Source of the DNA: Psammoneis japonica
Taxonomy: Eukaryota
Direction: 5' to 3'
NCBI GenBank assembly: GCA_008632985.1
Contig: QPGO01000054.1
Location: 186,001 to 250,000, forward strand
DNA: 64,000 nucleotides
In this document: one piece after another, positions 1 through 55,929 of the stretch
How the letters are laid out: the number at the start of each line of letters is the position of its first letter
Numbering within the stretch: position 1 is the stretch's first letter
Notes under the pieces: generated by a model
Database searches by the model: none
The model's input: the letters and a program-made list of their open reading frames with translations, nothing else
Told to the model about the DNA's origin: nothing
Translations under genes and position numbers: made by a program

Positions 1-362
1 CAAAGGCTGAGGCTGCACCAGTGGGAGAGAAAACACAGTGTCTTTGGAAGGCCAAAGAAGAGATGTCAGCACTGCAACCAACCAAGCTCTGCTCCTGTCC
101 TCAGTGATGGGTGCCAGGAAAGATGAGATGTGATGTGATGGTTGACACTCCTGGAGTGTCCATGCACTTGGATAGGATGAGCTGCTTTGCTTGCATTCAG
201 AAGGTGAGGTGGCTGAGCCACTCTGTCAGATGGTTCCCAAAAAGTGCAGAAAATGCACTGTGATGGAGAAAAGAAATCTTGTGCAACTGTGTGCTGAGCT
301 GGGGCTCTGCAGAACAACTGTCCTTCTTCCTCTGCAAGGATTTGGGCATCAAGGTCAACTCC
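1..362 (+). mobile_element. Degenerate Ty1/Copia (CoDi-like) reverse transcriptase fragment
   Basis: Diverged copy of 2461-2845. Translation EGEVAEPLCQMVPKKCRKCTVMEK...LCAEL matches the diatom Copia RT pattern EGEMAExLxxxxPxKYxKYxVMEKGKxxLYVxL once Y->C changes are allowed for. Confidence 0.75.
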
Positions 363-399
363 TCAGCACATGTGCTGGCTGATGTGTCACTGGGTGAGC

Positions 400-3300
400 T
401 GAGCACTCTGGTGGATGGCACTGCTCCCCTGCCCAACTCAAAAGGTGAGAGGCAGTGCACAACATCTCCAAGACCATGAGCAGTCACACACAGGAGTTGT
501 CATTGATGTTTGGCCAGTGCATCCAGCTGTTGAAGAGTCACTTGAAAGGGGGAGTGATGTCTGGACTGAGATTGCAACATGACCACCAATGTGGATGGCC
601 AGACAACTGGAGCTAATCTGAAACTGTGTGGTGCAAAAACAAGTCTGTCAGAGCTCAGTGCACACCATCATTGATGCCAAACTTGACCCACTCACCTTCT
701 GTCAAAAGCCTGTCACATGGCAGATGTGGGCAACTGTGACTGACAAGGCAAAAGATCTGATTGGGCAGGCATTGTGTCAAGCAGTGCCCAGCTGGGCAGA
801 TCAAGGCTCACCCTGACAGGGTGATGGTGACCTCCCAACCACATGAGAGCAAGAAATCTAAGCCAAAACAGCTGCAAAAAACAAGTGTGTCACAGCCCCA
901 TGTTCTCCTCACTTGGCAGTGGTTGGTGTGCCAATGTGGCAACCTGGTGGCTGATGTCAAGAACAAGCACACCAAGGTTTAAAAGACAAGTGCCCAACAA
1001 CACTCAAGAGGGCCTTCAACTGCATCTTCTTCTTTGTCCCACCCAAACATGGCTCTGCAGTTCAAAGCTGCAGCAGCCTTTCTTGCCACCAAACCCACCA
1101 AAAGAACACTGTGATTTATGCCAGGATGCAAAACAGGTCAAGGAAGGTGAGTGCAGTGGAGGAGGTGACCACAGTGCTGTTGTCAGAGCACTGGACAAGG
1201 CAGAGGATGACCAAGCCAAACAACCAGGGATCCAATCATGAAAAGAGAACACAGATGTGTGGGCTGCCCAGCCAGCTCCTTCCAGATGGCTTAGATGGTC
1301 TGGAGGAGAATCTGAAGGCTGCTCACTCACCCCCCTCTTGAGAGGCAGTGCTGCCATCTCACCTGCACAGTGCCCAGCCATGCCTCACAAGCAACAACAA
1401 GAAGCTCCTGACAGATGTCCATGACACACCTCCTCATTGGCTGTGCATGATGTGCTGCAATGCTTGCACCAGTCAGGACTGCCAAACTTTGAGGCTGGCA
1501 TTGGGATTTCCCCATGGCCAGCAGTTTGGGGTGTCATTTGACAGTGCTGAGGACAATGCCCCTGTGCCCCACATGATGCCAAAGGGCATGTGCAACACAG
1601 CTCAACCCCACTGGCTGAGCATGGCATGTGCACATTGCCTTTGTCCCACCCCACAAAGACTTGATGGCTCTCATCAGCCAAGTCTCTGCCACAACCCAAC
1701 TCACTGCACCTGTGCATGCAGGTGCTGTCAAGGCCTGCTGCCACCACACACAAAACATTGCGATGTTCCCCTCTGACAGGATGCCCAATCACACAGCAAA
1801 CAAGAGCCAGCGCTGCTGAGCTGCCCAGTTGCCTGGCACAATGTTGCAAGTGCACACAGCAAATTTGTGTTTTTGGCCTCAACATCAGTGCGCTGGAAGG
1901 AAATGTGGCACATTGTCAAGGGCTCCCAGCTCAAGGCATGTGTGGTGGTGTGCGCTGCTCATCAAACCTGCAGACACATGCACCAGAACCTCACTCTCTG
2001 TTTCAACCCTTTGTTTGTCCACAACATTGTTTTCTTCATTGTGTTTTGTGCAATGTCCAGATTGGGTGATGACAACTCTGCCCTGGGCCTCAGGTTGGGT
2101 GCAATTCTGACTCAGACTCCAGCGACAAGAAAAATGACCATTCCTCCTGGCTGAGCAAATGGAGATTGGAATTGTGGCCAAAGTGATCACACATGTGCAA
2201 CCTCTTCATCCAACATTTTGAAGACCTGATGGGGGAGGGGGTGTTCCTTGCAGATTAAATGGTGTCAGTGAAGAAAGGCTTGAAGGTGTTTGGCAAGGCT
2301 GGAGCAGAAGCTGTGGTGTCAAGGAGATGAATCAACTTGACTGCAGGGGTGGTGCAGCCCAGCTGCTGGTGTTTGCCACAGACATCACAAGAGTGCAAAA
2401 ATAGAGTGCACCAAGAAACCACATCACACACCTCAAGAAACAGATGTGGGGCAGCATCATCAAAGGCTGAGGCTGCACTGATGGGAGAGAAAGCAGTGTC
2501 TTTGCAAAACCAAAGAAGAGATGCAGTGCTGCATGCAACCAAGCTCTGTTTCTCTCCTCAATCATGGGTGCCAGGAAAGATGAGATGCCATGATGATTGA
2601 TGCTCTTGGGGATGAGCTGCTTTGCTTGCATTCAGAAGGTGAGGCAGCCAAGCCAATCCTCTGCCAGATGGTCCCCAAGAAGTGCAAAAAATGCACTGTG
2701 ATGGAGAAAGTAAAATCTTGCGTGGCTGTGTGTTGAGCTGAGGAAGGGGCTTTGCAGAACAACCCCACAAGCAAGGGGCCTTGCTGCTCTGGAAGAACCT
2801 GCTCTTCTTCCTCTGCAAGGATTTGAACCTCAACAAGGTCAAACTTGTGTGGCTGATGTGTGGTGAAAAAGACTGCCAATGGCAAGCAGTGCAAACCATC
2901 ATGTGGCAAGTTGGTGACTCGAAGCTGTCCCACATCATTGAAAACAGGAAGTGGCCAAGAACATTGCTGAAACTCTCAAGAGTGGCAAGTGTGGAAAAGA
3001 GAGACACTCCCATCCACCAAGGTGAGACACATGGCTGTGTTGGTGCAACCACAGATTTCTCAGATGGCAATGCTGGCAAGTTCATTGCAAAGAGCTGCAT
3101 TGCTTGAACCCTGGAAGAAGCCCCAGAGAACATGGATCATGGAGCCACAAAGCTGGACCTGGATTGCAAGGATTTGTTCAGCAAGTCAGTTGGTGGTGCA
3201 GAAACTCAGCGCATGAAAGCAGACCCACCTTGTCATTTTGCAAAAAGCTGCTGCACTTGTCCCTCTGAGCTCTGGACCTGACATCCAAATGGCAGCAGTG

Positions 3301-3790
3301 TCCTTCCTGTGCTCTGGAGTTGCAAGGCTGAACAAGGATGACTGGAAAAGAAGCTGCTGCAACACTGTGTCCAAAACTGTCCTGCCCACATGCAAGGCAG
3401 ACAAGAGCTGGTTCCCACCCTTGAAGCTGACAAGGACACTGCCATCCATTGAGTGGCATCTGGACACATCATGATTTGTGGCTCACCAGGACTGCAAAAA
3501 TCAAGATGAGTTGTCTGTGTCTTTGTGGGAAAGAGGCCAGCATGTTCCTCATTCACCAAGCAAAAATTGAACACACCAAGAGCCAGGCTGAGGCTGAATT
3601 GTCCAGAGGAGATGATGAATGCCTCTTGTCATTTAGACACAAGGTATTTCTTGGAAAAATGCAGGGCTGCAGTGTGAAGGACAATGTGGTGCATGAGGCA
3701 ACCAAAGTGCAGTGCTGTTGGAGAGAAATGGATGTGAAGCATTCCCAAACATCACACAAAAAAGAAACATTCCCTCATCTCTGATCAGCG
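400..3790 (+). mobile_element. Degenerate, internally deleted CoDi-like Ty1/Copia LTR retrotransposon (gag-protease-partial integrase-RT-RNase H)
   Basis: Motif remnants in Copia order. Gag: FGQCIQLLKSHLK and CGNLVADVKNKHTK..DKCPTTLKRAFN. Protease region: NKKLLTDVH..CNA and VSFDSAEDNA. Integrase start: FGLNISALEG and LTLCFNPLFVHNIVF. RT: SVKKGLKVFGKAGAEAVV-KEMNQL, LLLWKNL, TIMWQVGDSKLSH (WHVDDLK) and PDIQMAAVSFLCS. RNase H: KQKLN-TKSQAEAEL and QGCSVKDNVVHE-NQSAVLLERNG. Many frameshifts. LTRs were not identified. Confidence 0.85.
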
Positions 3791-5044
3791 CACCCACTCT
3801 TGACAAACCAAGATGCCAGTCATTGAGATTGTGAGGTCATGGTGTGAGTTTGTGGAGAGCCCAGAATTTCAGCACTTTTGCCTGTCACCAATCATCAGGT
3901 CATTTGATTGGGAAGCTTCCAATTTGGTGCAACTCAACAAAGGTGGTGTTGCAAAAGTTGCAATCACACCCAGAGAAGATCAAAGAAGGCTCAGTTTGAG
4001 CATTTTCATTGACATCCACAGAAAATGGCTTTTGAAGCTTGCAACTGGCAAAGATGGAGGAATGCACAATGTGTTTCTTGCACAATCAACCCATTGCAGT
4101 GCCAGACCAGCAAGAATCCCTGCTCTCTCTCTCTCTCTCCTCTCTCTCTCATTGATGCAGTGTTTTCTTCAACTGTGATGTGGAAACTGTTGCAGCTCTT
4201 TTTCAAAAAGAAAAGTCAAGGTGGTGACAACAGACATCCATCAATCTTTGTTTTTTGTGGTTTGCACACAAGGGATTGGAAGCTTTGGCTTTCCAAATCA
4301 CTTTTTTGCTGGAGACACTCCTCACAAATGATCACCATCATTGTGGTTGCAACGCTGCTTGGCATTTGGTGCATGTGGCTAGAAACTTGTTGGCGGCAAT
4401 GTGCTTGTTGCTGACACTCTTGATTCATTCTGTTCTGGAAGGAATGGCCATTGAAGTTGCTGCTGATGACAGTGTCAAAAATGTTGAGCCCAGCACAACT
4501 CAAAGAGGAGCACATGAGAGGGAGAAAGACAGTGAATTAGAATGGATTCATTGTTGAAGCTGCTGCACTGGACCCAAATGTGAATGCAGCAAAGGCCTTG
4601 TGAGAGCCAGAACAACAATGCAAGTGAACATGATTTCTCATCATCAGAAGACACTGGGGGCAGCATTTGCAACTTCCATCATTCAGTGCATTGCAAGCCT
4701 CCCTCTGCATGTCCATTTTGAAAGTTGCTGTGCATGGCAGTGTTGTGCACCAACAAGAAATGTGAGCAATGCAGCATTGGTCTGCTGGTGTGTTTGTGCT
4801 TGGCTGTGAGTTGATGTCTTCTTTGGCATTTGTGGTCTGCCCATGGCTCTGGCCCATGCAATTCTTGTCACTCAAACTGGTGGTGCCATCGGAATGGAGA
4901 GCCAGCTTGTGAGTCCTTCTGGGTGCCACAGCAGGTGCAACAAATGATGCTGGATGAACAGGCTCACCACAAATTTGACAGCAACCTTCACTCATGGCAT
5001 TCAATCTTAGTGTGCCTGTTCTGCCATCAGGCGCAACAAACAAT

Positions 5045-5720
5045 TCAAATGCAAACACCATTTTCAGTTTTCAACCTCTTGGATGTTGTGTGTTGGCATG
5101 AATTGTTTTGCTCCTTGTGCGTGAAACACAGGGATCTTCCATCATGCTCTGGAAAAGTGCTCCACATGCAATTTGCCCAGCAAAACACTCTCCAACCTTT
5201 CTTCTGTTAATCAAAATGATTCATGCACACAAGCTGCATGTGTTCTCCCCACAGAAACTTCTTGGTGCCACCACACATGAATGTGGCACAAAGTGGGGTG
5301 AACGTCATCATGAAAAAGAAAGATGTGGCCATTTTGAGAAGATCAAAAACACAAGAATTGCTTCCACAGCACTTGCAGACTTTGGGAGGGAAAAACAAAT
5401 GACACAATGCATTGGTGTCAACTTGAGCCAAAAACCAACATGTCAAAACCTTTGTTCTTGACAACAAATGGAATGTTGTCACAACTGTTGGCCACAGAAA
5501 GACAGCAAAGTTGGCCTTGTTCTTCCAGAGATTCAAAAGCCAAAAGAAAATTGACATTTCCCACCTTGGGAGCACCAGACATGATGACCATCACTGGGTG
5601 GGGAATCAAACTTTGGTTGTTGCATGTTGCTGCCATGCACTCACAAAGACAAACAGCAAACAGCATTGCCGGCGCTCCTCTGAGAAAGTGTCTGCAAATG
5701 CACAGAGAGCAATCAGGAAA
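5045..5720 (-). pseudogene. Hypermutated duplicate of the 3' half of the class-3 lipase gene
   Basis: Aligns to about 8015-8715. Still reads IPHPVMVIMSGAPKVGNVNFLLAFESLEEQGQL and FTPLCATFMCGGTKKFLWGEHMQLV, with frameshifts and the GHSLG motif degraded. Confidence 0.93.
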
Positions 5721-6800
5721 TCTTGTGTGGCTGTGTGTTGAGCTGAGGAAGGGGCTCTGCAAAACAACCCCACAAGGGGGCTTGCTGCTCTGGAAGAACC
5801 TGCTCTTCTTTCCCTCTGCAAGGATTTGAGCCTCGACAAGGTGACTCCTCTTGTGTGGCTGATGTGTGGTGAAAAAGACTGCCAATGGCAAGCAGTGCAA
5901 ATCATCATGTGGCAAGTTGGCAACTTGAAGCTGTCCCACATTGAAAACAGGAAGTGGCTGAGAACATTGCTGAAACTCTCAAGAGCGGCAAGTGTGGAAA
6001 AGAGAGACACTCCCATCCACTGAGGTGAGACACATGGCTGTGTTGGTGCAGCCATGGATTTCTCAGATGGCAACAGCAAGTTCATTGCAAAGAGCTGTGT
6101 TGCTTGAACCCTGGAAGTGGCCCCAGAGAACATGGATCATGGAGCAGCAGAGCTGGACCTGGCTTGCAAAGATCTGCTCAGCAAGTCCTTCAGTGATGCA
6201 GAAACTCAGTGCAGAGAAAGCAGACCAACATTGTCATTTTGCAGAAAGCTGCTGCACTTGTCCCTCTGAGCTGGACCTGATGTCCAAATGGCAGCATCCT
6301 TTCTGTGCTCTGGAGTTGCCAGGCTGGATGAGGATGACTGGAAGAAATGCTGCAACACTGTGTCCAAAACTTTCCTGCTCATGTGTGAGGCAGACAAGAG
6401 CTGGCCAGTTCCCACCCTTAAAAAGCTGACAAGGACACCACCATCCATTGAGCAGCAGACAGACACATCATGATTTGTGGTTCACCAGGACTGCAAAAAT
6501 CATGAAAATTGTCTGTGTCTTGGTGGGAAAGGGGCCAACATGCTCCTCATTCACCAAGCAAAAATTGAACACACCAAGAGCCAGGCTGGGGCAGAGTTGT
6601 TCAGAGCAGATCATGGCATGCTGCTTCTGGTCATTTAGATGAGAGGCATTTCCTGGCAGCATGCAGGGCTGCAGTGTGAAAGACAATGTGGCACACAAGG
6701 CAACCAAAGTGCAGTGCTTTTGGAGAGGAATGGATTTTTGAAGCATTCCCAAACATGCACAAAAAAGAAACATTCTCTTGCCTCTGATCAGCGCACTCCC
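5718..6800 (+). mobile_element. Second copy of the degenerate Copia RT/RNase H region
   Basis: Reads CVELRKGLC, LLLWKNL, IIMWQVGNLKLSH, SFLCSGVARLDEDDWKK and KQKLNT. Duplicate of about 2713-3800. Confidence 0.85.
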
Positions 6801-8014
6801 TCTTGACAAACCAAGATGCCATTCATTGAGATGGGGTGAGGTCATTGTGTGAGTTTGCAGAGGGCCCAGAATTTCAGCACTGTCGCCCATCACCAATCAT
6901 CAGGTTCTTTGATTGGGAAACTTCCAACATGGTGCAACTCAACACCGGTGTTGTTGTAAAAGTTGCAAGCACACCTGGAGAAGATCAACCCTCACTTTGA
7001 ACATTCAACATCCACAGAAAATGGCTTTTGAAGTTTGGCAAAGATGGAGAATTGTGCACAATGTGATTCTTGCACAATCAACCCAGTGCAGTGCACCAGA
7101 CCAGCACGAATCATCCCTCCTCTCTCATTGGCAGAGTTTTTTCCAACTGTGCTGTGGAAACTGTTGCAGCCCTTTTTCAAAAAGAAAAGTCAAGGCGGTG
7201 ACAACAGACATCCATCAATCTTTGTTTTTTGTGGTTTGCACACAAGGGATTAGAAGCTTTGGCTTTCCAAATCACTTTTTTGCTGGAGACACTCCTCACA
7301 AATGATCACCATCATTGTGGTTGCAATGCTGTTCAGCATTTGCATGGCTGGAAACTTGTTGGTGACAGTGTGCTTGTTGCTGACACTCTTGATTCATTCT
7401 GCACTGGAAGGAATGGCAATTAAAGTTGCTGCTGATGACAGTGTCAAAAATGTTAAGCCCAACACAACTCAAAGAGGAGCACATGAGAGAGAGAAAGAGA
7501 GTGAAACGGAATGGATTCATTGTTGAAGCTGCCGCACTGGACCCCAATGCGAATGCAGCAAGGGCCTTGTGAGCCAGAACAGCAATGCAAGTGAACATGA
7601 TTTCTCATCATTAGAAGACACTGAGGACAGCATTTGCAACTTCGATCATTCAGTGCATCGCAAACCTCCCTCTACATGTCTATTTTTGAAAGTTGCTGTG
7701 TAAGACAGTGTCGTGCATCAATCAGAAATAGGAGCGACGTAGCATTCGTCTGCTGGTGTGTTTGTGCTTGGCTGTGAGTTGATGTCTTCTTTGGCATTCG
7801 AGGTCTACATAGCTCTGGCCCCAGCAATTCTTATCACTCTAATTGGGGTGGTGCCATCGGAATAGAGAGCCAACATATGCGTCCTTTTGGGCGCCATACT
7901 AGGTGCAACCAATGATGCTGGATGAATAGGCTTACCACGAATTCGACAGTAACCTTCACTCATATGGTTATTAATCTTAGTGTATCTGTTCTGCTATCAG
8001 GTACAACAAACAAT

Positions 8015-9613
8015 TCAAATGCAATCACCACTTTCAGTTTTTTCAACCTCTTGGATATTATGTGTCGGTATAAATTGTTTTGCTCCTCCCGCATGAAACA
8101 CGGGGATCCTCCATCGTGCTCTGGCAAAGCGCTCCGCATACAACTCGTCCAGCGAAACGCTCTCCAACCTTTTCTTCTGTCGATCAAAACGATTCATGTA
8201 CACAAGCTGCGTGTGTTCTCCCCGCAGAAACTTCTTGGTGCCACACGTGAATATGGCACAAAGTGGGATGAATATCATCATGAAAAAGAAAGATCTGACC
8301 ATTTTGAGAAGATCAAACACGAGAATTCCACAGTAACTGCGGACTTTGGGAGGGAAACTAATGACGTAACCCCGCGGTTTCAGCTTGAGCCGAAAACCAA
8401 CATGTCGAAACCTTCGTTCTTGACAACAAATGGCATGACATAACGCCAACGCCCCAATAGGAGGTGACAATGTGACAATGTCGCGATAGTTGGCCACATG
8501 AAGGCAGCGAAGTCGCCCTTGTTCTTCTAGGGATTCAAAAGCCAACAGAAAATCGATATTTCCCACCTTGGGAGCACCAGACGTAATGACCGTCACTGGG
8601 TGGGGAATCGAACTTTGGTCGTTGTGTGTCGCTGCCGCGCACTCAAAGGCAAACAGCGTAGCTAGAGCTCCTCCAAGAGAGTGTCCGCAAATATATAGAG
8701 AGTAATCTGGACATTCCTGAAAGACTTGCTCCAGCTGTGTCATTATGATCTTGTACTTTTCTTTCTTCATTGACAATTTAGTCTCTGTGTGAGTGCTTTC
8801 CGCCCTGACCCCCTGCTTGTCTTCGTTTGCGCTGGTGGTATTAGTAGTCCTTGTATCCGCGTCCACTGAACTCAATTGAAGAGCTCCATTTCGACCTTCA
8901 CGTGCAGTGCTACCAAGAAAGAGAGAGTCAGTCCAGCCTTCTTCGCCATAGAGATACTCCTTAAATCCAAAATGGATGGCAAGATTATCAGGCGGACCAG
9001 CTACGGGGTTTTTCAGGTTGGACAAGATAGCTTTGGCGTCTTGCTGAAAATCTTTAGTAGTGACTGAGCCACGAAAAGCTACGGTCACTCGTTTGAGAAC
9101 ATGGTTAATTCCAATGGCATAGACACATTCTTCTTCGCTACGGGCATCATCGACGTGGAGAACAGAGTTCGTGTCCAGCTCTTCACTGCTCAGGTTCCAA
9201 GCTTCCTGATACATGTAAACACGTTCGTCACAGGCCACCATAGTTCGGATGCGGTCCAGGTTTTCATTGTAGAGCGTGGCAACGTCACGAAAGGAACAAG
9301 GGCACTCCAAGACGCGTTGAATCAAGTCGGGGTCGCTCTTGTCAATTTCTCCCTGTCGAATGAGATTTCGAATGTCAGGATAACAAACATAAGGTACGAT
9401 GCTGTAAGGTGAAATGAAGCAGAGTTGGATCTTGCGAATGTCAGCGAACTTTTTTCTATAATAGCATGTGAAGCATGATAGAACTGCTCCGTTATCAGCA
9501 TGCGTACCTAGCAAAGGTCTCCTGGCTTCTTCGTAGATCGACATGGAGATTTTCTCCTCCGTTTTGGGAGACTCTGATGCCTGGTTTTCGACGTCTCTCT
9601 CGTCTTCTGCCAT
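8015..9613 (-). CDS. Class 3 (fungal-type) triacylglycerol lipase
   Basis: 532-aa ORF with VTVAFRGS, IHFGF, the ICGHSLGGALATL nucleophile elbow, SGAPKVGN, and NYRDIV. Confidence 0.92.
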   Translation of the reverse strand: MAEDERDVENQASESPKTEEKISMSIYEEARRPLLGTHADNGAVLSCFTCYYRKKFADIRKIQLCFISPYSIVPYVCYPDIRNLIRQGEIDKSDPDLIQRVLECPCSFRDVATLYNENLDRIRTMVACDERVYMYQEAWNLSSEELDTNSVLHVDDARSEEECVYAIGINHVLKRVTVAFRGSVTTKDFQQDAKAILSNLKNPVAGPPDNLAIHFGFKEYLYGEEGWTDSLFLGSTAREGRNGALQLSSVDADTRTTNTTSANEDKQGVRAESTHTETKLSMKKEKYKIIMTQLEQVFQECPDYSLYICGHSLGGALATLFAFECAAATHNDQSSIPHPVTVITSGAPKVGNIDFLLAFESLEEQGRLRCLHVANYRDIVTLSPPIGALALCHAICCQERRFRHVGFRLKLKPRGYVISFPPKVRSYCGILVFDLLKMVRSFFFMMIFIPLCAIFTCGTKKFLRGEHTQLVYMNRFDRQKKRLESVSLDELYAERFARARWRIPVFHAGGAKQFIPTHNIQEVEKTESGDCI

Positions 9614-25512: not shown

Positions 25513-26174
25513 GTGACTACTACGTCAAATGCCCGACGTACTGAACGTCACATAAAACCACCACCCCACTTTAACTTCTCATCTTTTCACAAACTATGAC
25601 ATGCATTTCCACAAACTGCGAGTGCACGGCACAACGATCACCACTCACTTAAGCAGCGAATGTCATGAATCCACGACAAACACAATCAGAAACAAGGTTC
25701 CACCAACCATGGCACCACCCGATGGCGGGATTGTAGTAGAGGTGGCGCACCTCCACCCGCACACAAAATGTCCGAACACGCCTCACCAGTCGCACAATTT
25801 ATCAATGTCGAGAGCTCCAGTCTACAAGGGGAGGACAGCACCGAGACGTTAGAGTCGTGCAGACAGTGCCAACGTCATCGCAAGCATCTCCATCCGGGGC
25901 ACCTCCAGTGCAATCTGAATCAACTGTTGGACACTTCTGAATGATGCATTCTGTGTGCTGAAGAATGGACTTGGAAAGCCTTGAGCTTTCCATGGACCAG
26001 GAGTGACTGTGAATCTCCAGCTGATGACAATCTTTGGGAATGAGCAGCTGACGCCCGGGGGATGAACTCTTCCGCATTCGAACGGAGGACAAGCACCTCC
26101 AACCATGCAGTCCATGAACCAGGCCAGTTCATGGGCACACCCAGAGCAACACTTGGCTGTAACTTGGTTGCAGA

Positions 26175-26401
26175 NNNNNNNNNNNNNNNNNNNNNNNNNN
26201 NNNNNNNNNNNNNNNNNNNNNNNNNNNNNNNNNNNNNNNNNNNNNNNNNNNNNNNNNNNNNNNNNNNNNNNNNNNNNNNNNNNNNNNNNNNNNNNNNNNN
26301 NNNNNNNNNNNNNNNNNNNNNNNNNNNNNNNNNNNNNNNNNNNNNNNNNNNNNNNNNNNNNNNNNNNNNNNNNNNNNNNNNNNNNNNNNNNNNNNNNNNN
26401 N
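26175..26401. other. Assembly gap (N run)
   Basis: Run of N. Confidence 1.
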
Positions 26402-27439
26402 GGGGGGGGGCAGAACGGGTGGCAGGGTGGTGGGTGGTGCCGTGCATCCATCACACTCACATGAGCACCCCATCAAGCTTGTTTGCTCTTCCGTGCAATT
26501 CATGGCATTGACACAGTGTTCAATGCAGTTGTCACAACATCACAGGCTGCAGTGCCACTTTATGAGCTCTTTGCATGTGTTGCCATCTGCAGGGAGTTGG
26601 GGATTCTTGCATGCAATGCGGTTGCCTGCATTTTGCCAGCAATGCTGTGCAACATCTGCCAGGGCATCTTTGTTGTCTTCACAAATGAGCAAGGTGGACG
26701 TGAAAGGCACTGGGGTGGGAGAAGAAACATCCCTCCAATTCTTTGCATCACAGTCAGGGCATTGCCTTCCCAGGGAATCCCAAAAGACACATTTGACCCA
26801 ATCCTGATGGAGCAAAGGACAGGGTGATTTGAAGGAGGTTTGTCAGAAAAGTGCTTGCAAACATCAAGACAGTCATCACTTTGTGTGCAATGAGCCTTCC
26901 TCTGCTTGTTTTTGCCTGAGATTCTGATTGCTCACCTGAGCGTCATTTGCACAAAGGCTGAAACAATCTTCCCAACAGCACAACCAATTGGTCAGTCCCT
27001 GAGACAGAGCTCTCATCTACAACAGGGGCCACACAACCTCTGGACAGGCCCTCTAGAAAGTGCACTCAACCACATCAGCTTGATGATCATCACACTGTGT
27101 CTGGACACCAACAAGGGCAAAGACAAAGAGAACAAGAAAAGTGGCATCAAGAACTTCATGGTTCTTCAAAGAACTGTGTGAAAGATGTGCACACAGCAAG
27201 ACACAACAAGATGATTTGCTGCTGGTGTGGTGCACAGGCAGTGCCAAGTCCTTCCAAGGATTCCTCTCTACAATGGAGATTGTCTCCCCTCACTGGACAA
27301 CAAGATCCTTGTTGCCATTCAAAGCTCAACCTGGAAACTCCTTTGCCTCTCCCTGACTTGTTTTGTGAGCAGTTTCTTGAGACTCTGCTCTCTTGGGAAT
27401 CTACATTGTTCTCAGAAAAATTTTTGTGTGTTTCTGTTC

Positions 27440-27700
27440 ACAACCAGGTCAGCCACTTGGTTGCCAATCACACCACTTCCAGGAGCCATTTAGCTGGCCT
27501 GTGACAATTGCAGGGACTCCACTGGTTGATTGTGCAGGATCAGTCTTCGGTTGCTCTCCATCTTCTCATCAAGCTGAGGGCTGTGATGGCGTGCTGTCTC
27601 TGATGCAGTTTGCACCCCAACAATTGATGGAATTTTGTTGGATTGCAAGATGCGAAGGTGTGAACAACTGGTGTGACAACAAAGCACTGGTGAAGGTCCT
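27440..27700 (+). mobile_element. Degenerate non-LTR retrotransposon (LINE) RNase H fragment
   Basis: FSW..GTPLVDCAGSVFGCSPSSHQAEGCDGVLSLMQF..WCDNKALV back-converts to the RNase H pattern SYRAEGYGxLS..xCDNxALV of diatom LINEs. Confidence 0.6.
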
Positions 27701-28199
27701 TTTCACTGTTTCATCAGGGGCCCAAATCTGTGAATCCTCCTGTCAGCTGACAAGCACAAGACTGCAGTCTGGGAAAACATTTGTGAGGAATTCTACACAA
27801 ATTCATTCATGACAAGAAATCAGTCTGATTTGTTGTAAATGACACCCTTTTGTGACAAACTGGTGTGATTTGCAACACGCAAATGTCCCCTGCGGCCTTC
27901 CAAAAATGCCCCGACTTTGTCAATCAAGAAAAAAGTGCAGATTGGTGAGTTTGGTGTAATCCAGTGAGTTGATGCCAACAACCCACTTCATTTGATGTTT
28001 GGAATCACAACTCTGATGACTGAGAATTGACAGATTGACTTGCACTCTGATGACTGATTTGCACTGTTGTGCTGCAATTCTTTTTAAATCCATCATCTGC
28101 AATGCACAGTTGTTCTTCAATGTGTCAATGTCACACAATCTTTCTTTGAATGACGACACTGCCACCACCTGTTTTTTTTGTCCACCAAGCTGCCACCCA

Positions 28200-29200
28200 T
28201 CACCAAACCACCATCAACTCCAGTTCATGCACCTCAGCGCAGTCAACCACATGGTCCCCCTCATCATCTGGCATGCTGAGTTCTCCTTCTGCTTGTTTTT
28301 CTCTGTTTTTCAGAATCACCCTGCACAACTCCTCCCATTGTTTGAGTTGTTCATTCATCACCTCTTGTTTGATCTCCTTTGCCATGTCTTTGAAGAACTT
28401 GTTGGCCCTTGGTGACCACCCTTTTCTCTTCCTTGGTGTCTTGTGCCACTTTCTGCTGCCTGCACCTTCCTCTGTTGGTTTGGAGCATCCCACCATGAAG
28501 CAATTGAGCTGTCTCATGCACTGTGTTTTTTTTNNNNNNNNNNNNNNNNNNNNNNNNNNNNNNNNNNNNNNNNNNNNNNNNNNNNNNNNNNNNNNNNNNN
28601 NNNNNNNNNNNNNNNNNNNNNNNNNNNNNNNNNNNNNNNNNNNNCCCCCCCCCCCCCTCTTCTCCCATGAGTGGCCTCAAGAGGCAGTCACAGAACACAA
28701 TGTGCAACATCAGTTTTTCTCTCTCTGAGAGTCTCTCCAGTGATGGGAGCACACAATTGCCACACTGCTGTTGTGGTGTGTGCATGTCACTGTTTCAATG
28801 GATGTGGCAAATGGCACAATCAACAGATGCCAGTGTTGAACTTAGACAGATAAAAAGTGCTTTTGCCACTCACAGCAAAATCTGCTCTGCTGTGCCTGAC
28901 AAGCATTGGATCTCTTTGCTGTCAGCCACTCTTGGCACCACAACTTCTCTTGTTTGATTTTCATCCAAAGGAATTGCAGGGCCATGTCTTCTGCTGCACC
29001 TCTGTCAGCTCTGTCAGTGCGCCATCCATCAATGTTGGTCTGCACTTCTGGGCAAATTCTTGGTGCAGCAAGCCTGTTTCCTCCAGAATTGCCTTGCATC
29101 AAACACAAATGTGATGCTCCGGAACACTTTTTCTTTGATGTGATGTCTCACCTTGACAATGTCTCTGCCAACCTTTTTGTCACATGGGTCATCCACTTGC
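28200..29200 (-). pseudogene. Degenerate ORF of an uncharacterised repeat-associated family
   Basis: Protein-like remnants DIVKVRHHIKEKVFRSITF, QFLWMKI..EWLTAKRSN and RKGWSPRANKFFKDMAKEIKQ..WEELCR lie in order on one strand across a gap. Family not identified. Confidence 0.35.
28534..28643. other. Assembly gap (N run)
   Basis: Run of N. Confidence 1.
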
Positions 29201-30024
29201 TTGGATTCATCTGCCTCTGAACTGTCATTGCCATGGTGCCTGCTCCCCTGCCATTTGCCTGTGTTTCTTTGCCTCAATGCCCAGGCAAACACACGTGCAG
29301 ACAAATTGGCTGGTCAGCATTGAGGTCAATGAATGTCCAACATGGTGCAAGTCATTCATTCTCTTTGCTGTCAAGCACATCTCACTTCATTCTTGTGGAT
29401 GAAACAGCAATGGCTGCATTGAAAACTGCAGCCCATTGTGCAGTGACATTCCTCACTCTGATGGAACATGATGAGACAGTTGCAGATGTGTTTGCTTGGT
29501 GAAAAGTGAGCTCCTCCCTCATCTGACATTTCTGCAAGAAGAAGCACATCTCTGTGGTTGAGCCAAATTGTGAACTCCTCCCTGTGAACAAGATTGTAAA
29601 CCACCAGTGCACTCTGGTGCATCCATGCCACTGTTTAGCCTGCAAACATCCAACCAGGATCATGTCCTCAAATGTCATGACAATGAACCCTGGCATTGCA
29701 AATTTCTGCAGGGTTTTCATTGGCATTGTGACAAGATGGGCACTGTGTGTCCTTTGCAAGAATTTCTTTGTTTTCTTCTTTTGAGGCATGGTTTTGGGAT
29801 CTCATGGTGTGTGAGTCACAAGCTCCTCCCATGCATGCTGCACTCATTGTGGAGAGCCCAGAGTCTGAAACAGGCTGGAACCAATTGCTCAATTGTCCAT
29901 GCTCTGCTCTTTGAAACACCTTTCAAGATCATCACCTGCAACAATCTGGTCTTCTGGAATGGCACCACAAGGAAAACAGACCTCCCCAACATTGTGCAGT
30001 GCAGATGCAATCATGCATTTAGAC

Positions 30025-30400
30025 ATCATGGTGGGAACTCTGGGAAGCACACAGCAAGGCAATGCACATGAGGATGATGCAAATTCCTGAAAATCATTGC
30101 AACAATGCCAATCTGAAGCTGAGCATGCAACTGTCTGCTGCAACAAATGTCAAGAACACCTGGCAAAGGACAGAGAGGTCTTGATGGGTTCTAGAGAAGA
30201 TTGCACATCTCACTCTGCTTCCAAGATTCAAAGCTTGGCTGCCCCAATCAAGCTGCATCTAAAAGAGAGCACAACAAAAGCAAAGCACTCTGTGCTCCTT
30301 TTGTGGCACTCCTTGGGTGCACCATTGCCAGTTGCTTTGACGGGGCATCACCAGAAGGTGACGCCCATCCTGGCCAGCAACCATTGTCCTTTTTTTCTGC
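30025..30400 (+). mobile_element. Degenerate LINE ORF2 3' end
   Basis: WWELWEAHSKAMH..SLQQCQSEAE resembles the WxxRNxxxHG C-terminal motif of LINE ORF2. Homologous to 49285-49560 on the opposite strand. Confidence 0.5.
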
Positions 30401-33400
30401 TGCACTGACCAGCATCATGCTGGAAGTGTGGGTCAGCCAGCACCAGCAATGTGCACGTGTGTGCAAGTGGCGGCAATGTCCTGTGCTGCACAGGCAGCAG
30501 CTGTGCAGAGGTCTTCCAGCAGCATGGTTCAACTGGGGGCATCCACACTCCTGCAGCCCCATTTTGACATCATGTGTCATGTTTCATGGTGGGCTCATGC
30601 AATGACACAACCCATCAGAATTTCAACAGCAACTGCGCCATGCCAAAGTGCCACAAAAACCAACTGCAAACCATCTTTGATGGTGCTCATGTCATTTGTT
30701 GATGGCATGAGATGACAATCTGAAGGCACTTGAAACACACCTGATCCTGCCATGGATGCAGGGTTGGCCTCAGCTTGATCAAGCTTCTTGTTGCTGCAGT
30801 GCTCTGGAAGAATGCCACATTGCACTGCACACCAAATAAGTTGATGGTTTGGAGTGTTGAAACCAACCAAGGGAGACTGCAAGATCTGAGGAGAAGAACA
30901 ACACAACTGGAAAGGCAGAGACAGGCTGAGGTGAGGAGTGTGGGGGGGCATTGTCAAGGAGATGGAGGGGATTGTTGAGCTCAAATGAACATTTCAGCAA
31001 GAAATGAGACAAACTCAATGCTGCAAAAGTGTCTCAGATGCCAAGCCTCTTCAACTTCCAAGTTCTTGTGACAAGCCAACATGACAATTGCACCCAGGTC
31101 CTGATTGAAGACTTTGCTGCCCATCCTGACACTGACTTTTCTCTGAGCGCAAAGCCAAGTTGTTGGGCAAAAAATTGCCATGAAGAACAAGATGCTCCAA
31201 CCAGATGTGCTTTGTGTGTTGCTGTTTGGCTTTGCTGAAGTGTTTGAGGCCAACCTTGTGTCTGCAGCTTTCCACAAACTTTTCCAATGGCAGCAGACTG
31301 CAAATTGCCAAACACCAACAACCAACATAAAATCCTGCACATCAACAGCAATTGAGGCACCAGCACATTCAGCAACTCGTCCAATGGCCCCTGAAGTGTC
31401 ACGCTGACAACAACTTGCAAACCCTCATTGACAATGGGCAAAGATTTGACTGAAGCCATGAGGAGGAGGGAGCAACAACACAAAGGAGCAGTGCACAAGA
31501 TGCCAAAAAAGTTCAAAGTGCAAGGGAGAGCACTTTAGTCTGTCAAGAATGAACAGAAATTGCAGCACAAGAGGTGCCAAGAGATGAATTTTTACATTGG
31601 AAAACTTGTGGAAAAGGCACCTTTTTTGTCCATTCTTTTGGCATTTTTCTGCCGCTCTTTTCACAGGTGAGCTTGCCAGAGAAATTGCAATGTGTGCTGG
31701 GTTGTGTCAGAGGGAAACATTTGTGGCATGATGTGGGCTTTAATGCAGAAATCACACTGGAGTCACTTCAAGACCACTGTGTGTCGGCATCATCACACCA
31801 ATTGTGCTTTTGCACAAGTTGCCTGGAGACTGGACACCACATTGGGTGGTGGTGGAAAGGGAGATCACTTTCATGTTTTAGACCAATGTTGCCAACCTTG
31901 CAACCCCTTCCTTTCACCTTTTTTGAGACCCTCTTTCTGCTTCTTTGCCTTCTCCCACCTCTCTTTGTTCTGGGAGATCACCAACCCGGCCCCACCATGA
32001 TCCTTGCTCAAGGGAGGGCTGGAAAGGGCACTGTGAAAGCCAGTCAGAGCTCAGCATTTGGGATTTCCACTCAAAGAGGGGGCCCTTGAAATTCAAGGAC
32101 TTTCTGATTCACCAATTGACACCATTTTTCAGGGGAATCTGGGTGCAGTCACTTGGGGAAAAGAAGGTTGAGACAAAAACTCTCAAAAAAGCAAACACAA
32201 GAGTCAGGAACAACGCAGAGACCAACAATCATTTTCTTTTCAGGCCCACAGAAAAACACAGCAACTCTCTTACAAAAACAACCCACAAGAAAGAAAAGCA
32301 CAACTGCTGCTGGTGCTTCATGACAGACATTTCAGAAGAATCTGCTCCACCAAAAAGTGGCTGCACACAGTGGCAGCTGCGTTCCTTTCTTGGCAACATG
32401 GGCACTCAATCCCTAAAACGCAAAGGCTCTGTCAAACAGAGCAAACACCAAGTGAGTTTTGTGCAAGAGGTGGGTGCATCAGAGCAACTTGAGTGGGCAA
32501 AAGGTGTGCCAAGAGCAAACAGTGAAAAAAAAATGCACAAGAGGAGAGGTGAGAGAGGGCCTTCATGTCATCATGGTCATGACCCCACAACAAAAAAGGA
32601 AACAGGTGCTTGCAAGTGATCGATCATCACCAAGGCCACCAGGATCACAGAGCAACATGCAACACAGAGCTTCACAAAATGAGCAACACAAGTTGAACTC
32701 CAGCCATCCCAGAAAAGGGAAAATCAACCATGCAAGAGCACTTTGGAACAATGACGTCAATGGCTCTAGCTGCATTGCCTCTTCCAGGTGACTCCCAATT
32801 TTTGCAGGCACAAGCACATCTGGGAGCATCCCGCTCAACAGGCACAAGAAGCAACCCAAATCTTTTTGATGCTGCTGTGCAAGGAACACAGAGAGCCAGC
32901 GGACACACCAAAGCAGCACAAGATTTGTGATTGAGCAAAAAGCACAAGAGCACAGAAGAGAAAAGACCAAATGCCCTGCAGTTGTGAGTGCTCTTGCGAG
33001 CCTCACTCTGGAGGACTCTGTGAAGCCTCAACTCAGTCAAGGTGGTGCAACAAACACCCCATGACTTGAGAAAAGGACACACAATGGCTCCAGGAGACAC
33101 CGGAGACAAAAGACAGCATGTTCCCTCCAGGTCATTTGCAGTCTCTCCAAGGATTGCTGCACTTTGCCACCCGGCCAACTGCTGCTGTTGTCATTGGCTG
33201 TAAGGTGCAAAATTTTTGTCTCTGGTGTGGTGCTGGGAGCAGAATTTTCCAAACATCTTCCTTCAGCACATTGTTGGAAAGAAGTGTGGCAAGAAGATGG
33301 CACACAATTGTGCAGACATCACCAGGTGGGGTAGAACAACACCAATTTTTTGTGTCAGCAGCAAGACCCTCCCTCTGAAAGGTGTTGCACACAGATTCTG

Positions 33401-34084
33401 TGCTGCTGGCGGGCCACACAAATGCATCATGAAGGAGGGAGTTGCCAAAACCAAGGAAATCTTGCTGGAGCTCCACAAGGTTGCACTCACAGTTGTGCTG
33501 CTTTTCCTCCTCTGGGTGCAGTCAGTTCATGGCAGGCAGAAGCAGGTTGTGTCATGTCAAATGTTGGTCAACCATTTTTCCCCAACTCACCTCAAGACTG
33601 TGCCTGCTCAGGGGAGCACACATTTGGGCACACTTCTGGACAAAGCAGTGAACCCATCTTGCTCAGGGTTCATGCTGTTGCAGACAATGCAAGGAAAGAG
33701 AACTCCATGTTTGCACCCTCAGACCTTGGGTCATTCCCAGCTTCTTTTTAAAGCTGCCTGCCAATGTGGCAAAGAATGGCCAAACTCCACATTTCCTTTG
33801 TGAGTGGCCCAGGAGTGAGAAATTTCTTGAGTTGCAGTCTCTGCCTCAGTCAGGAGTTTTTTTTTCCAAGGGCAAATCTCAGCATCACTGTGCTGGCTGC
33901 ACATGATGTTCTTTCTGTCTCATCATGATCCTCATGGCAAACAAGCTGGCAAGACTGCCATCACCAGATTTCTTGCGCAGGCAGAATTTGCCATTCTGAG
34001 ATGTGGCAATGCTGCCCCCCCTGCTCCAGAGCACTTGGTGGAAAAAAGAGTCAAGCAGTCAAGCACAGCTGGCTGCCAACAATG

Positions 34085-37000: not shown

Positions 37001-37345
37001 GATGGTGGTGTGGATTTTCTCGAGCCAACACATGTGGGTTGGAGGCACACCACCACATCATGACACCACCTTCAACAGGCATTTTTCCATGCAGTTGCAA
37101 CAACTGGGACTTTGGTGTCAACACAGTTCCACAACACTTCTTGGCACACAGCCAAGCACCAGGTGATCCAAATGTGCGCGTGTGTCCTGAGTGCTTGTTG
37201 AAGCAAGCCATGGGAAGAGCTCCTCCAAGCAAGTCATGGACGCTGTTCCATGACCTGAGAATCTGCAAAATGGAAAGAACAGGCAACATGTGGCGGATTT
37301 GATGGTTGTTTGCAAAATGAGACAGGAGAACACTTGGCAAGCAAG
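34085..37345 (+). repeat. Dispersed direct repeat pair, about 34085-34645 and about 36683-37345
   Basis: Shared segments such as GCAGAGTCATGACA..AAAGATTGCCAGCTGAAGTG and TGTGTCCTGAGTGCTTG..GCAAGCCATGGGAAGAGC..GCTGTTCCATGACC. Coordinates span both copies. Confidence 0.85.
35400..35880 (+). mobile_element. Degenerate tyrosine recombinase of a DIRS/Ngaro-type retrotransposon
   Basis: Reads GHPNLCPVKALT-VEHL, then QDTAAWCLWAASPTALLCTCVDADQTQLLG..SDKMLLHLHLQ..PIMGNF..MLAGG. This back-converts to the YR tail SARSLRAxGAxALLxxxVDxDxIxLLGRWxSDxMLRYLH. Confidence 0.72.
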
Positions 37346-37643
37346 GGGCTCATGATGGCATCATTGTTCCGTTGGTCGTCAGTCCGCTCCCTGCGCACTC
37401 TGCTGTCAAGGGATAAGCCCTTGCGCGCTGTCGTCTTTTTTTTTTTTTTTTTTCGATTTTCGTTTTCTCCCTCCGACCTCTTTTCTTGCAGTTGTATCTA
37501 TTCACCACTCTCCGACCCACAATTGTCAACACCTTTCTTTTCAACTTCGACAACATGTTTTGTGCAGCATGACAACACAAGCATCTGAAGCAAGCACCTC
37601 TGAGCAGTGAACAACAGGGTAACGAACGAACAACCTCATCAGC

Positions 37644-48900: not shown

Positions 48901-49139
48901 GAGCAACTTTTGTCAACTGGATTTTGGTTGTGATGTGCTGAGCTGTTTTTTTGTGCACCCAACAACATCAAAGACAGATTTGTCAAGAAGAGCAATGACA
49001 ACATTGCATTTGACAAAGTGACCCAGCATCAAAAAAAGACCAAATCAAATTTTTAAGTGCTGTCACTCCTTTGCCAGCCAGGCCAGCACCAGCTGATCCA
49101 CACTCCCAGTGCACTGCATCACATGGCAGGTGCTTGCAT

Positions 49140-55762: not shown

Positions 55763-55929
55763 GCCCCCCCCCCCCCCCCCCCCCCGCGACCCGCCACATT
55801 CGAATACGATGGAAATACTGGCGCTTTGCTTTGGCTATAACATTACCTAGATGCTTAAGGGCTGAGTTTAGATTACGAAGTGCGCAAAAGCAGAATATAC
55901 ATCGGCTTAGGGATAACAGCAATGGGATC

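What the first reader, a model, noticed from the sequence alone, without database searches (positions are those of the whole stretch)
4950..8715. Dual CpG->TpG/CpA and TpA->TpG/CpA hypermutation, shown by a duplicate of an intact gene
Seen: the intact lipase gives an unmutated reference for its copy inside block 1. 8681-8707 GTGTC-CG-CAAA-TA-TA-TA-GAGAG-TA-ATC becomes 5688-5714 GTGTC-TG-CAAA-TG-CA-CA-GAGAG-CA-ATC: all five CG/TA sites convert and nothing else changes. 8053-8076 vs 5081-5104 has five differences, four at TA and one at CG. Established: CpG loss follows 5mC deamination (many diatoms methylate TEs at CG via DNMT5), but fungal RIP creates TpA rather than removing it. Inference: an extra A:T->G:C process targeted to TpA acts on silenced repeats. 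Candidates are Pol-eta-like error-prone repair (WA hotspot, as in somatic hypermutation) or a TadA-like DNA adenine deaminase. I am not aware of this being described as a genome-defence system, but cannot search the literature.
Basis: partly seen in the sequence, partly recalled or inferred. Interest (0 to 1): 0.95.

Follow-up and report, generated by a model that had tools for sequence, protein, structure and literature searches.

The report
CpG- and TpA-erasing mutation domains, diatom
In this diatom DNA, three long gene-free stretches have had almost every CG and TA letter pair turned into TG or CA, and a gene piece copied into one of them shows the change directly, pointing to a position-targeted DNA editing process whose TA half has so far been reported in only one other alga.

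Summary
Three blocks (about 1-7500, 25850-37400, 46340-55800; roughly 28 of 64 kb) hold CG at o/e 0.07 and TA at 0.05, with TG/CA at 1.8-1.9. Flanking gene regions have CG 0.95 and TA 0.59.

A 1-kb copy of the lipase 3' part inside block 1 has 41 of 46 CpG and 33 of 42 TpA changed to TG/CA; other positions differ at 6%. Contigs from raw reads carry the same letters at 60-100x.

The copy belongs to a 3-kb tandem duplication. The block edge (~7500) lies inside the second unit, so the same sequence is erased in one place and spared in the other. Targeting is therefore positional, not sequence- or repeat-driven.

Hits fall at random on either strand, ApA is not hot (Pol eta rejected), non-CpG C is not hot, and TCG is preferred.

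Best reading: silent-domain 5mC deamination plus a TpA-specific adenine deamination. The mechanism is inferred, not shown.

A 2026 preprint reports TpA hypermutation in Bigelowiella natans. I found no report of a dual form, or of any such process in diatoms.

The parts
1..7500 (.). Block 1, a CG/TA-erased domain that runs off the left end of the window. Its right edge lies at about 7480-7510.
   Evidence: Per 500 bp there are 0-4 CG and 0-3 TA, with TG/CA at o/e 1.4-2.4. No Pfam family was found except the lipase remnant.
25850..37400 (.). Block 2, an erased domain with core 26410-37050. It contains N gaps at 26175-26401 and 28534-28644.
   Evidence: The edge zones are TA-poor but still hold about half the normal CG.
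46340..55800 (.). Block 3, an erased domain with core 46480-55360. It contains N gaps at 54462-54487 and 55362-55533.
4701..5736 (-). Erased copy of the lipase 3' part (catalytic GHSLGG region to the stop) plus about 350 bp of its downstream flank.
   Evidence: Alignment and fate table. Weak Lipase_3 match, E=8e-4. Fragmented tblastn match to P0001.
7668..8740 (-). Intact counterpart: the downstream flank and 3' part of the lipase gene (the gene is 8015-9613 on the minus strand).
   Evidence: Lipase_3 E=3e-22. 79% identity to P0001 in one frame. Normal CG and TA content.
2713..5721 (.). Unit 1 of a 3.0-kb tandem duplication, erased over its whole length.
   Evidence: Purine/pyrimidine-coded seeds. 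blastn 86% identity over 2795 bp.
5718..8714 (.). Unit 2 of the tandem duplication. It is erased up to about 7500 and untouched beyond, so the domain edge lies inside the unit.
50383..51767 (.). Duplication inside block 3 (50383-51008 vs 51170-51767) in which the two copies resolved old CG/TA sites independently.
   Evidence: 17 adjacent CA<->TG double differences in 592 columns; no other double type occurs more than once.
34083..37349 (.). Duplication of about 2.6-2.7 kb period reaching the right edge of block 2 (34083-34645 vs 36680-37349).
   Evidence: Four CG kept in the edge copy correspond to TG, CA, TG, TG in the inner copy.
3645..3646 (+). A residual TpA in block 1 that reads CpA in all contig depth of run X1.
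   Evidence: It is the only difference in 6.1 kb. Sequence context ggTAtt.

Best explanation
SHOWN. The window is nuclear DNA of a diatom, with gene-dense stretches alternating with 8-11 kb gene-free domains. Inside those domains two context-specific transition processes have run almost to completion: CpG>TpG/CpA and TpA>TpG/CpA.
- Each dinucleotide takes one hit, on either strand at random, and is then immune.
- The rate is at least about 30 times that of other positions.
- The process continued after local duplications.
- What is hit is decided by position. DNA that comes to lie inside a domain is erased, while the identical sequence next to an active gene is spared. The edges are sharp and lie 130-600 bp from genes.

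INFERRED. The domains are heritably silent, CpG-methylated chromatin.
- The CpG arm is deamination of 5-methylcytosine. It is probably enzyme-assisted, because TCG is preferred.
- The TpA arm is deamination of adenine to inosine in the context 5'-T-A. The likely enzyme is a TadA/ADAT2-type deaminase recruited to the same chromatin, or to a slightly wider zone.

The net effect strips a domain of all CpG, all TpA (hence TAA/TAG codons and TATA-like sites) and any coding sense, without changing its G+C content.
For: - Fate tables and Fisher tests on the lipase pair.
- Block-wide dinucleotide o/e: CG 0.07, TA 0.05, CA 1.80, TG 1.91. The other dinucleotides stay within 0.2 of their normal-region values. 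G+C is 48.5% in blocks vs 47.8% outside.
- Polarity from the outgroup lipase.
- Raw-read contigs support the letters and bridge the edge.
- No strand coordination: 32 TG and 42 CA outcomes, runs-test z=0.64.
- One hit per site: only 3 of 42 TA became CG and 1 of 46 CG became TA.
- Positional targeting: a tandem duplication with the domain edge inside unit 2.
- Activity after duplication: CA<->TG double differences number 22, 17 and 5 in three within-block pairs. In the two longer pairs no other double type exceeds 2. Leftover CG/TA sites were lost in one or the other unit.
- Rate bound, my arithmetic: 1/46 and 1/42 sites kept, against 6.2% change elsewhere, gives at least 30-fold per base. From: 6199 TG+CA against 115 CG and 87 TA gives about 27- and 36-fold at equilibrium.
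- TCG preference from two data sets. Strand choice: TCG 21/31 vs other CG 22/61, p=0.007. Residual sites: TCG-containing classes are rarest and GCGC commonest. Cross-prediction of strand choice from residual-site rates gives permutation p=0.01.
- TA is lost before or beyond CG at the edges: TA 9 vs 61 expected, CG 44 vs 83 expected.
- De novo TpA>TpG/CpA hypermutation of about 1000-fold in local domains was measured in B. natans, with an ADAT2 candidate.
- Diatoms methylate CpG on silent DNA through DNMT5a and carry RID-related DNMT4 of unknown function (passages of PMC9998398).
- TadA variants edit DNA adenine in a YAC context and can be evolved to deaminate cytosine (passages of the review PMC13109818). 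That native TadA/ADAT2 act on A34 after the universal U33 is recalled, not looked up.
Against: - No methylation, chromatin or expression data exist for these blocks.
- No genome is held, so no deaminase, DNMT or TET/JBP gene of this organism could be looked for.
- TpA is self-complementary. An A-centred event (deamination) cannot be told from a T-centred event (a modified thymine mispairing with G).
- Residual TpA sites are strongly biased to TTAA, TTAG/CTAA and CTAG. This suggests TAY is a better substrate than TAR. However, rates derived from that bias did not predict strand choice in the lipase copy (n=33; log-likelihood worse than the null; permutation p=0.23).
- The blocks hold no recognisable TE or viral gene. 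A 'defence against invaders' role is therefore not shown.
- The edge-zone windows were chosen after looking at the site lists, so the p-value is optimistic.
- Read support may come from the assembly's own data.
- Only one window of one genome was seen.
Confidence: 0.55

Rival explanations
1. A thymine-centred modification. A TET/JBP-type dioxygenase oxidises 5-methylpyrimidines at self-complementary YpR steps in silent chromatin: T at TpA to 5hmU, and 5mC at CpG to 5hmC. 5hmU mispairs with G, giving T>C, and oxidised or deaminated 5mC gives C>T. One enzyme would then explain both arms.
For: - Both targets are 5-methylpyrimidines followed by a purine in a palindromic step, and both arms share the same domains.
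- Sequence cannot separate T>C on one strand from A>G on the other.
- That dinoflagellate 5hmU is enriched at TpA is recalled, not looked up.
Against: - The full-text search for 5-hydroxymethyluracil plus diatom listed 15 papers; all listed titles are dinoflagellate-centred and the papers were not opened.
- T in TpG would also be a 5-methylpyrimidine-purine step, yet TG is the stable end product.
- The TA arm reaches further than the CG arm at the edges, which fits two activities better than one.
Confidence: 0.15
2. RIP-like, repeat-induced mutation. Duplication itself triggers the changes, as in fungi.
For: - Local tandem duplications lie at the right edge of all three blocks.
- Duplicated copies inside blocks mutated after duplication.
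- Diatoms carry RID-related DNMT4.
- TCG preference resembles basidiomycete RIP-like mutation (recalled).
Against: - About 1.2 kb of unit 2 (7500-8714) is duplicated but untouched. This includes about 500 bp of non-coding flank.
- Most block sequence has no second copy in the window, and depth is single-copy.
- TpA is destroyed, not made.
- There are no strand-coordinated runs.
Confidence: 0.08
3. No dedicated enzyme. Ordinary decay of methylated CpG is combined with a repair or replication bias of heterochromatin that happens to hit A:T, for example mismatch-repair patches filled by Pol eta.
For: - CpG decay in methylated DNA is universal.
- The duplication is old (6% change at other sites), so a long time was available.
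Against: - ApA is at background: 4/157 against 40/85 at TpA. Pol eta's WA signature is therefore absent.
- Transversions at TpA are few: 7 against 40 transitions.
- Near-total loss, with 1 of 42 TpA kept, needs at least a 30-fold rate.
- TCG is the preferred CpG context. In human SBS1 TCG is the least mutable CpG (recalled).
Confidence: 0.1
4. Artefact of base calling or assembly at modified bases, or foreign DNA with a native CG/TA-free composition maintained by selection.
For: - N gaps cluster in the blocks.
- One 508-bp stretch is repeated at 100% identity with gaps in the same phase.
- The platform of run X1 is not on record.
Against: - Contigs built from raw reads at depth 60-100 agree at all but one base and bridge the edge.
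- Strand-specific miscalls of a symmetric site would also give CG and TA calls, and these are absent.
- A host gene fragment shows the conversion against its own intact copy and an outgroup, so the composition was acquired in place.
- The two copies inside blocks differ by CA<->TG doubles.
Confidence: 0.03

Closest known systems
TpA hypermutation of integrated NCLDV and virophage DNA in Bigelowiella natans (Mettrop et al., bioRxiv 10.64898/2026.01.13.699255; I read the abstract, Results and Discussion)
   Same: - TpA>TpG/CpA only, on either strand.
- Confined to local domains with normal DNA around them.
- Long-term signature of low TpA with high CpA+TpG.
- Many affected sequences have no annotation.
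   Different: - The preprint text has no CpG arm; 'CpG' occurs 0 times.
- Its TpA depletion is partial (rho 0.45 for the NCLDV region), whereas here o/e is 0.05.
- Its targets are identifiable viral insertions, whereas here no viral or TE gene was found.
- It measured de novo rates, whereas here rates are only inferred from a duplication.
- The lineage differs: Rhizaria there, a diatom here.
- Its supplements could not be read.
Decay of methylated CpG (5mC deamination), as in vertebrates, plants and diatom TEs methylated by DNMT5a (PMC9998398, passages)
   Same: CpG>TpG/CpA in silent DNA; unmethylated gene regions keep CpG (o/e 0.95 here).
   Different: - Depletion is far deeper (o/e 0.07).
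- TCG is preferred.
- It is coupled in the same domains to a TpA arm that 5mC chemistry cannot explain.
Fungal RIP (Neurospora) and the RIP-like TCG hypermutation of basidiomycetes (Microbotryum; PMC5381629 seen only as a search listing; the TCG target is recalled)
   Same: Irreversible transition mutation used against unwanted DNA; possible DNMT4/RID link; TCG preference as in basidiomycetes.
   Different: - RIP makes TpA, whereas here TpA is erased.
- RIP hits both copies of a repeat in strand-coordinated bursts, whereas here one copy is spared and the hits are strand-random.
TadA/ADAT2 tRNA adenosine deaminases and the DNA editors derived from them (review PMC13109818, passages; amphioxus and trypanosome ADAT2 acting on DNA as cited in the B. 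natans preprint)
   Same: A>I after a 5' T/U; variants also deaminate C; the product reads as G.
   Different: No such enzyme has been identified for this organism. Natural genome-wide, chromatin-targeted DNA editing by this family has not been demonstrated.
Somatic hypermutation phase 2 (AID, mismatch repair, Pol eta; WA hotspot)
   Same: C deamination and A:T mutation occur in one locus.
   Different: ApA is not hot here, changes are 85% transitions, and the process is heritable and domain-wide.

Membership tests
B. natans-type TpA hypermutation | A>G / T>C restricted to TpA | tested here: met
   40/85 at TpA against 4/157 ApA, 4/161 CpA and 7/133 GpA.
B. natans-type TpA hypermutation | Confined to local domains amid normally mutating DNA | tested here: met
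   Three blocks with edges under 300 bp wide.
B. natans-type TpA hypermutation | Targets are integrated viral or other foreign sequences | tested here: inconclusive
   Among 182 block open frames of 75 aa or more, the only Pfam match is the lipase remnant. The longest frame has 0 relatives among 1.84 billion proteins. The one identifiable target is a host gene fragment.
B. natans-type TpA hypermutation | De novo rate about 1000 times background in mutation-accumulation lines | not testable with these tools
   Only a lower bound of about 30-fold.
Methylated-CpG decay | CpG>TpG/CpA with TG/CA excess | tested here: met
   41 of 46 CpG converted; CG o/e 0.07 and TG/CA o/e 1.8-1.9.
Methylated-CpG decay | Affected DNA is 5mC-methylated | not testable with these tools
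   No methylome is available; methylation is inferred from diatom biology.
Methylated-CpG decay | Accounts for all the context-specific change | tested here: not met
   The TpA arm is of equal size.
Fungal RIP (ascomycete type) | C>T mainly at CpA, creating TpA | tested here: not met
   C>T at CpA is 4/157; TpA is destroyed.
Fungal RIP (ascomycete type) | Both copies of a duplication are mutated over the repeated length | tested here: not met
   Unit 2 beyond 7500 is untouched.
Fungal RIP (ascomycete type) | Strand-coordinated runs of mutations | tested here: not met
   Runs test z=0.64 on 74 sites.
Pol eta / WA-type error-prone repair | A>G hot at both TpA and ApA | tested here: not met
   ApA 4/157.
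APOBEC/DddA-type TC deamination | C>T at TpC irrespective of the 3' base | tested here: not met
   Non-CpG TCH 3/101 against other non-CpG C 11/269. A 5'-T preference is seen only within CpG.
ADAR-type editing | 5' U or A tolerated, 3' G preferred, dsRNA substrate | tested here: not met
   ApA is at background. There is no 3'-G preference: TAG 9/20 against TAC 12/18. The substrate type is not testable.
TadA/ADAT2-type deaminase acting on DNA | A deaminated after a 5' T/U | tested here: met
   This matches the pattern only; no enzyme was examined.
TadA/ADAT2-type deaminase acting on DNA | A deaminase-fold gene of this family that acts in the nucleus on these domains | not testable with these tools
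   No genome is held.

The most novel reading that the evidence does not exclude
Diatoms, and perhaps the SAR lineages at large given Bigelowiella, have a chromatin-domain-targeted DNA editing system with two arms. One arm is a natural DNA adenine deaminase specific for 5'-TA. The other is an assisted 5mC deamination that prefers TCG. Together they irreversibly erase both self-complementary pyrimidine-purine steps from any DNA that falls inside a silent domain, whatever its sequence or copy number. The domains grow by tandem duplications that carry flanking DNA across the edge. Much 'unannotatable' unique DNA in such genomes would then be the end product of this editing.
Probability: 0.4. Interest if true: 0.9.

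Novelty: new variant of a known kind. Interest (0 to 1): 0.8.

Why it matters
A heritable, position-targeted A:T>G:C editing of nuclear DNA is almost unknown in eukaryotes. The only report I found is a 2026 preprint on one chlorarachniophyte.

Finding its end state in a diatom, coupled to complete CpG loss, would extend that report in three ways:
- The process would be older and wider than one species.
- It would act on position (chromatin) rather than on viral sequence.
- It could convert about 40% of a region into unrecognisable unique DNA while leaving G+C unchanged.

This bears on several questions:
- how TE and viral remnants are annotated;
- how mutation-rate and molecular-clock estimates are made;
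- how genome size grows in diatoms;
- the search for natural DNA adenine deaminases.

The tandem duplication found here is a natural experiment, with the same sequence erased in one place and spared in the other. It makes the targeting rule directly testable.

Tried and rejected
- The whole genome is not held, so there was no genome-wide scan and no search for deaminase, DNMT or TET genes.
I used stop-to-stop frames by the standard code instead. The 32 + 150 frames of 75 aa or more matched only the lipase remnant, plus one sub-threshold LYRIC match (E=0.008, 16 bits against a cut-off of 30).
- The longest block frame (265 aa) had 0 hits among 1.84 billion representative proteins.
- No period-3 purine/pyrimidine signal in the blocks: 0 of 80 windows above 6, against 24% of 118 normal windows. 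RY-codon scoring picked out only the lipase copy.
- No Rfam family and no tRNA in the window.
- The metagenome scan for close lipase relatives gave only two overlapping contigs at 35% identity. There is therefore no orthologous block to compare.
- No RNA holder was listed for the stretch.
- Earlier findings of this scan: none on this genome or this pattern. The word search returned only phage cases.
- The 3'-neighbour model for the TpA arm failed cross-validation.
- The idea that TTA residuals arise from TCA>TTA is not supported: TCH 3/101.
- Literature searches found no paper on TpA or dual CpG+TpA erasure in diatoms. The library lacks most subscription journals.
- The search and its first hit were irrelevant, because 'YAC' there means yeast artificial chromosome.

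Full report
**What the window is.** The long open frames outside the blocks are ordinary host genes: class-3 lipase, an NAD-dependent epimerase/dehydratase-family (GDP-sugar-type) enzyme, an MMPL transporter, a short-chain dehydrogenase, a DSBA-like protein and Tcf25. The lipase's best named relative is from the diatom Seminavis robusta (55%), and other named hits are diatoms. No whole genome is held.

**The observation.** The homology is longer than stated: 4701-5736 aligns with 7668-8740.

Fates of dinucleotides in the intact copy:

| Site class | Aligned | To CA | To TG | Kept | Other |
|---|---|---|---|---|---|
| CpG | 46 | 23 | 18 | 1 | 4 |
| TpA | 42 | 19 | 14 | 1 | 8 (3 of them CG) |

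Outside CG/TA, 52 of 835 positions differ.

Transition rates, both strands pooled:
- A/T transitions: 40/87 at TpA against 15/457 elsewhere (p=4e-24).
- C/G transitions: 43/92 at CpG against 14/378 elsewhere (p=3e-23).
- A>G by 5' neighbour: TpA 40/85, ApA 4/157, CpA 4/161, GpA 7/133.
- C>T by 3' neighbour: CpG 43/92, CpA 4/157, CpC 4/93, CpT 6/120.

Polarity is given by an outgroup. A 79%-identical lipase (P0001) matches the intact gene in one frame over 337 aa. It matches the block copy only in fragments of 47-65% that change frame.

**Scale.** The pattern is not local to the copy. In 500-bp windows, three blocks hold 0-8 CG and 0-5 TA, where flanking DNA holds 15-38 CG and 10-40 TA.

| Dinucleotide | o/e in blocks | o/e in normal DNA |
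|---|---|---|
| CG | 0.07 | 0.95 |
| TA | 0.05 | 0.59 |
| CA | 1.80 | 1.15 |
| TG | 1.91 | 1.14 |

The other twelve dinucleotides change little (each within 0.2 of its normal-region value), and G+C is 48.5% in blocks against 47.8% outside. The blocks cover roughly 28 of 64 kb. All four N gaps lie in them.

**Is it real DNA?** Logan contigs of run X1 (word depth 60-100, similar in the block and in the gene region) agree with window 2700-8800 at all but one base. A 353-bp contig spans the block edge at 7425-7777.

The single difference is T>C at 3645. That position is one of the few residual TpA sites of block 1 and reads CpA in the run.

The run may be the assembly's own data and its platform is not on record, so this excludes a consensus error but not every artefact. 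A strand-specific miscall of a symmetric modified site would, however, also produce CG and TA calls, and these are missing.

**A natural experiment.** Purine/pyrimidine coding is blind to transitions. Under that coding, 2713-5721 and 5718-8714 are two units of a 3.0-kb tandem duplication.
- Unit 1 is erased throughout.
- Unit 2 is erased up to about 7500 and untouched beyond. The untouched part includes about 500 bp of non-coding flank downstream of the lipase stop.

The same sequence has therefore met opposite fates according to where it lies. This argues against sequence-intrinsic or purely repeat-induced targeting and for a positional (chromatin-domain) rule.

In the part that is erased in both units, most TG/CA states near the edge (7100-7500) are shared. 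A few leftover CG/TA sites have since been lost in one unit or the other. The edge thus stood at the same place before the duplication and still stands there after about 6% divergence.

**The process kept running after duplications.** Copies that both lie inside blocks differ chiefly by adjacent CA<->TG double differences. These are the mark of an old CG or TA resolved independently in each copy:
- 22 in 1728 columns (2713-4500 vs 5718-7469);
- 17 in 592 columns (50383-51008 vs 51170-51767);
- 5 in 290 columns (1-315 vs 2461-2760).

In the two longer pairs no other double type exceeds 2.

**How the hits fall.**
- Outcomes TG (32) and CA (42) alternate at random along the lipase copy (runs z=0.64). 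There are no strand-coordinated bursts.
- Each dinucleotide takes essentially one hit.
- Within CpG the strand with a 5' T is preferred: TCG 21/31 against other CG 22/61, p=0.007.
- Among the residual CpGs of the blocks, classes containing TCG are rarest and GCGC is commonest.
- Rates derived from those residuals predict strand choice in the lipase copy (permutation p=0.01).
- Non-CpG TC is not hot (3/101).

**Residual TpA sites.** These are strikingly biased. Survival relative to normal DNA runs from TTAA 0.52, TTAG/CTAA 0.31 and CTAG 0.14 down to ATAC/GTAT 0.006, with GTAC and ATAT at 0. A strand-independent multiplicative model fits these numbers by my own arithmetic.

Rates from that model did not predict strand choice in the lipase copy (n=33; worse than the null; p=0.23). 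Whether TAY is a better substrate than TAR therefore stays open. The proxy for ancestral tetramer frequencies (mostly genic DNA) may also bias the figures.

**Edges.** In the five edge zones taken together (1512 bp), TA is 9 against 61 expected and CG is 44 against 83 expected. The TpA arm therefore reaches further, or acts faster, than the CpG arm. I chose these zones after seeing the site lists. The edges lie 130-600 bp from the nearest long open frames.

**What the blocks are.**
- Single-copy by depth.
- Complex sequence; Tandem Repeats Finder reports only short arrays (45-104 bp, periods 22-27), all in block 3.
- No Pfam family in 182 open frames apart from the lipase remnant.
- No relatives for the longest frame.
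- No coding periodicity and no RNA genes.

Their origin is unknown. Local tandem duplications reach the right edge of all three blocks, which suggests one way in which flanking DNA is drawn in. The block-3 case includes 508 bp at 100% identity with gaps in the same phase, and this may be an assembly effect.

**Mechanism.**
- Shown: two dinucleotide-specific transition processes, strand-random, one hit per site, domain-limited and long-lasting. They run at least about 30 times faster than change at other positions (my arithmetic).
- Inferred: the domains are CpG-methylated silent chromatin, as diatom repeats are (PMC9998398, passages).
- Inferred: the CpG arm is 5mC deamination, probably assisted, given the TCG preference.
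- Inferred: the TpA arm is adenine deamination after a 5' T. That is the context of TadA/ADAT2 enzymes (recalled) and of TadA-derived editors (PMC13109818, passages). It is also the candidate proposed for Bigelowiella.

Rejected or disfavoured mechanisms:
- Pol eta: ApA is cold.
- ADAR-like editing: no ApA signal and no 3'-G preference.
- General TC deaminases.
- Ascomycete RIP: it makes TpA, hits both copies and works in strand runs.

A thymine-centred modification cannot be excluded from sequence alone.

**Literature.** A 2026 preprint reports about 1000-fold TpA>TpG/CpA hypermutation of integrated NCLDV and virophage DNA in B. natans mutation-accumulation lines. I read its abstract, Results and Discussion.

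Seven full-text searches found nothing on diatoms or on a dual form.

**Verdict.** The kind of process is known from one recent preprint. The dual, near-complete, position-targeted form in a diatom is a new variant.

Noticed in passing
window 2713-8714; 34083-37349; 53954-55763: Local tandem duplications (periods of about 3.0, 2.6-2.7 and 0.9 kb) reach or span the right edge of all three blocks. This may be how flanking DNA is carried into a block.
   Followed up: partly
window 53954-54461 vs 54854-55361: A 508-bp stretch is repeated at 100% identity, with N gaps (54462-54487 and 55362-55533) at the same phase of the 900-bp unit. It is either a very recent duplication or a scaffolding effect.
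   Followed up: no
L001 1-1000 and 1936-2476; L002 410-1164: Two overlapping contigs of another diatom-like organism, from two metagenomes and 99.8% identical to each other, show patches with TA o/e 0.09-0.15, CG o/e 0.23-0.34 and TG/CA o/e 1.3-2.1. This is the same 'TA first' composition as the edge zones here. The contigs are too short for a firm reading.
   Followed up: partly
window 3645: The assembly has TpA here, whereas all contig depth of run X1 has CpA. It is the only difference in 6.1 kb and sits at a residual TpA of a block.
   Followed up: partly
blocks (1-7480, 26410-37050, 46480-54460): Residual TpA sites are mostly TTAA, TTAG/CTAA and CTAG; GTAC and ATAT are extinct. Residual CpGs are richest in GCGC. 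The four palindromic CpG tetramers survive about twice as well as a strand-multiplicative model predicts.
   Followed up: partly
window 58385-60351 (-): The Tcf25 domain is split over two open frames (profile positions 1-108 and 162-293). This probably reflects an intron.
   Followed up: no
window 55764-55786 and 34950-34963: Long poly-C runs, one of them exactly at the right edge of block 3.
   Followed up: no
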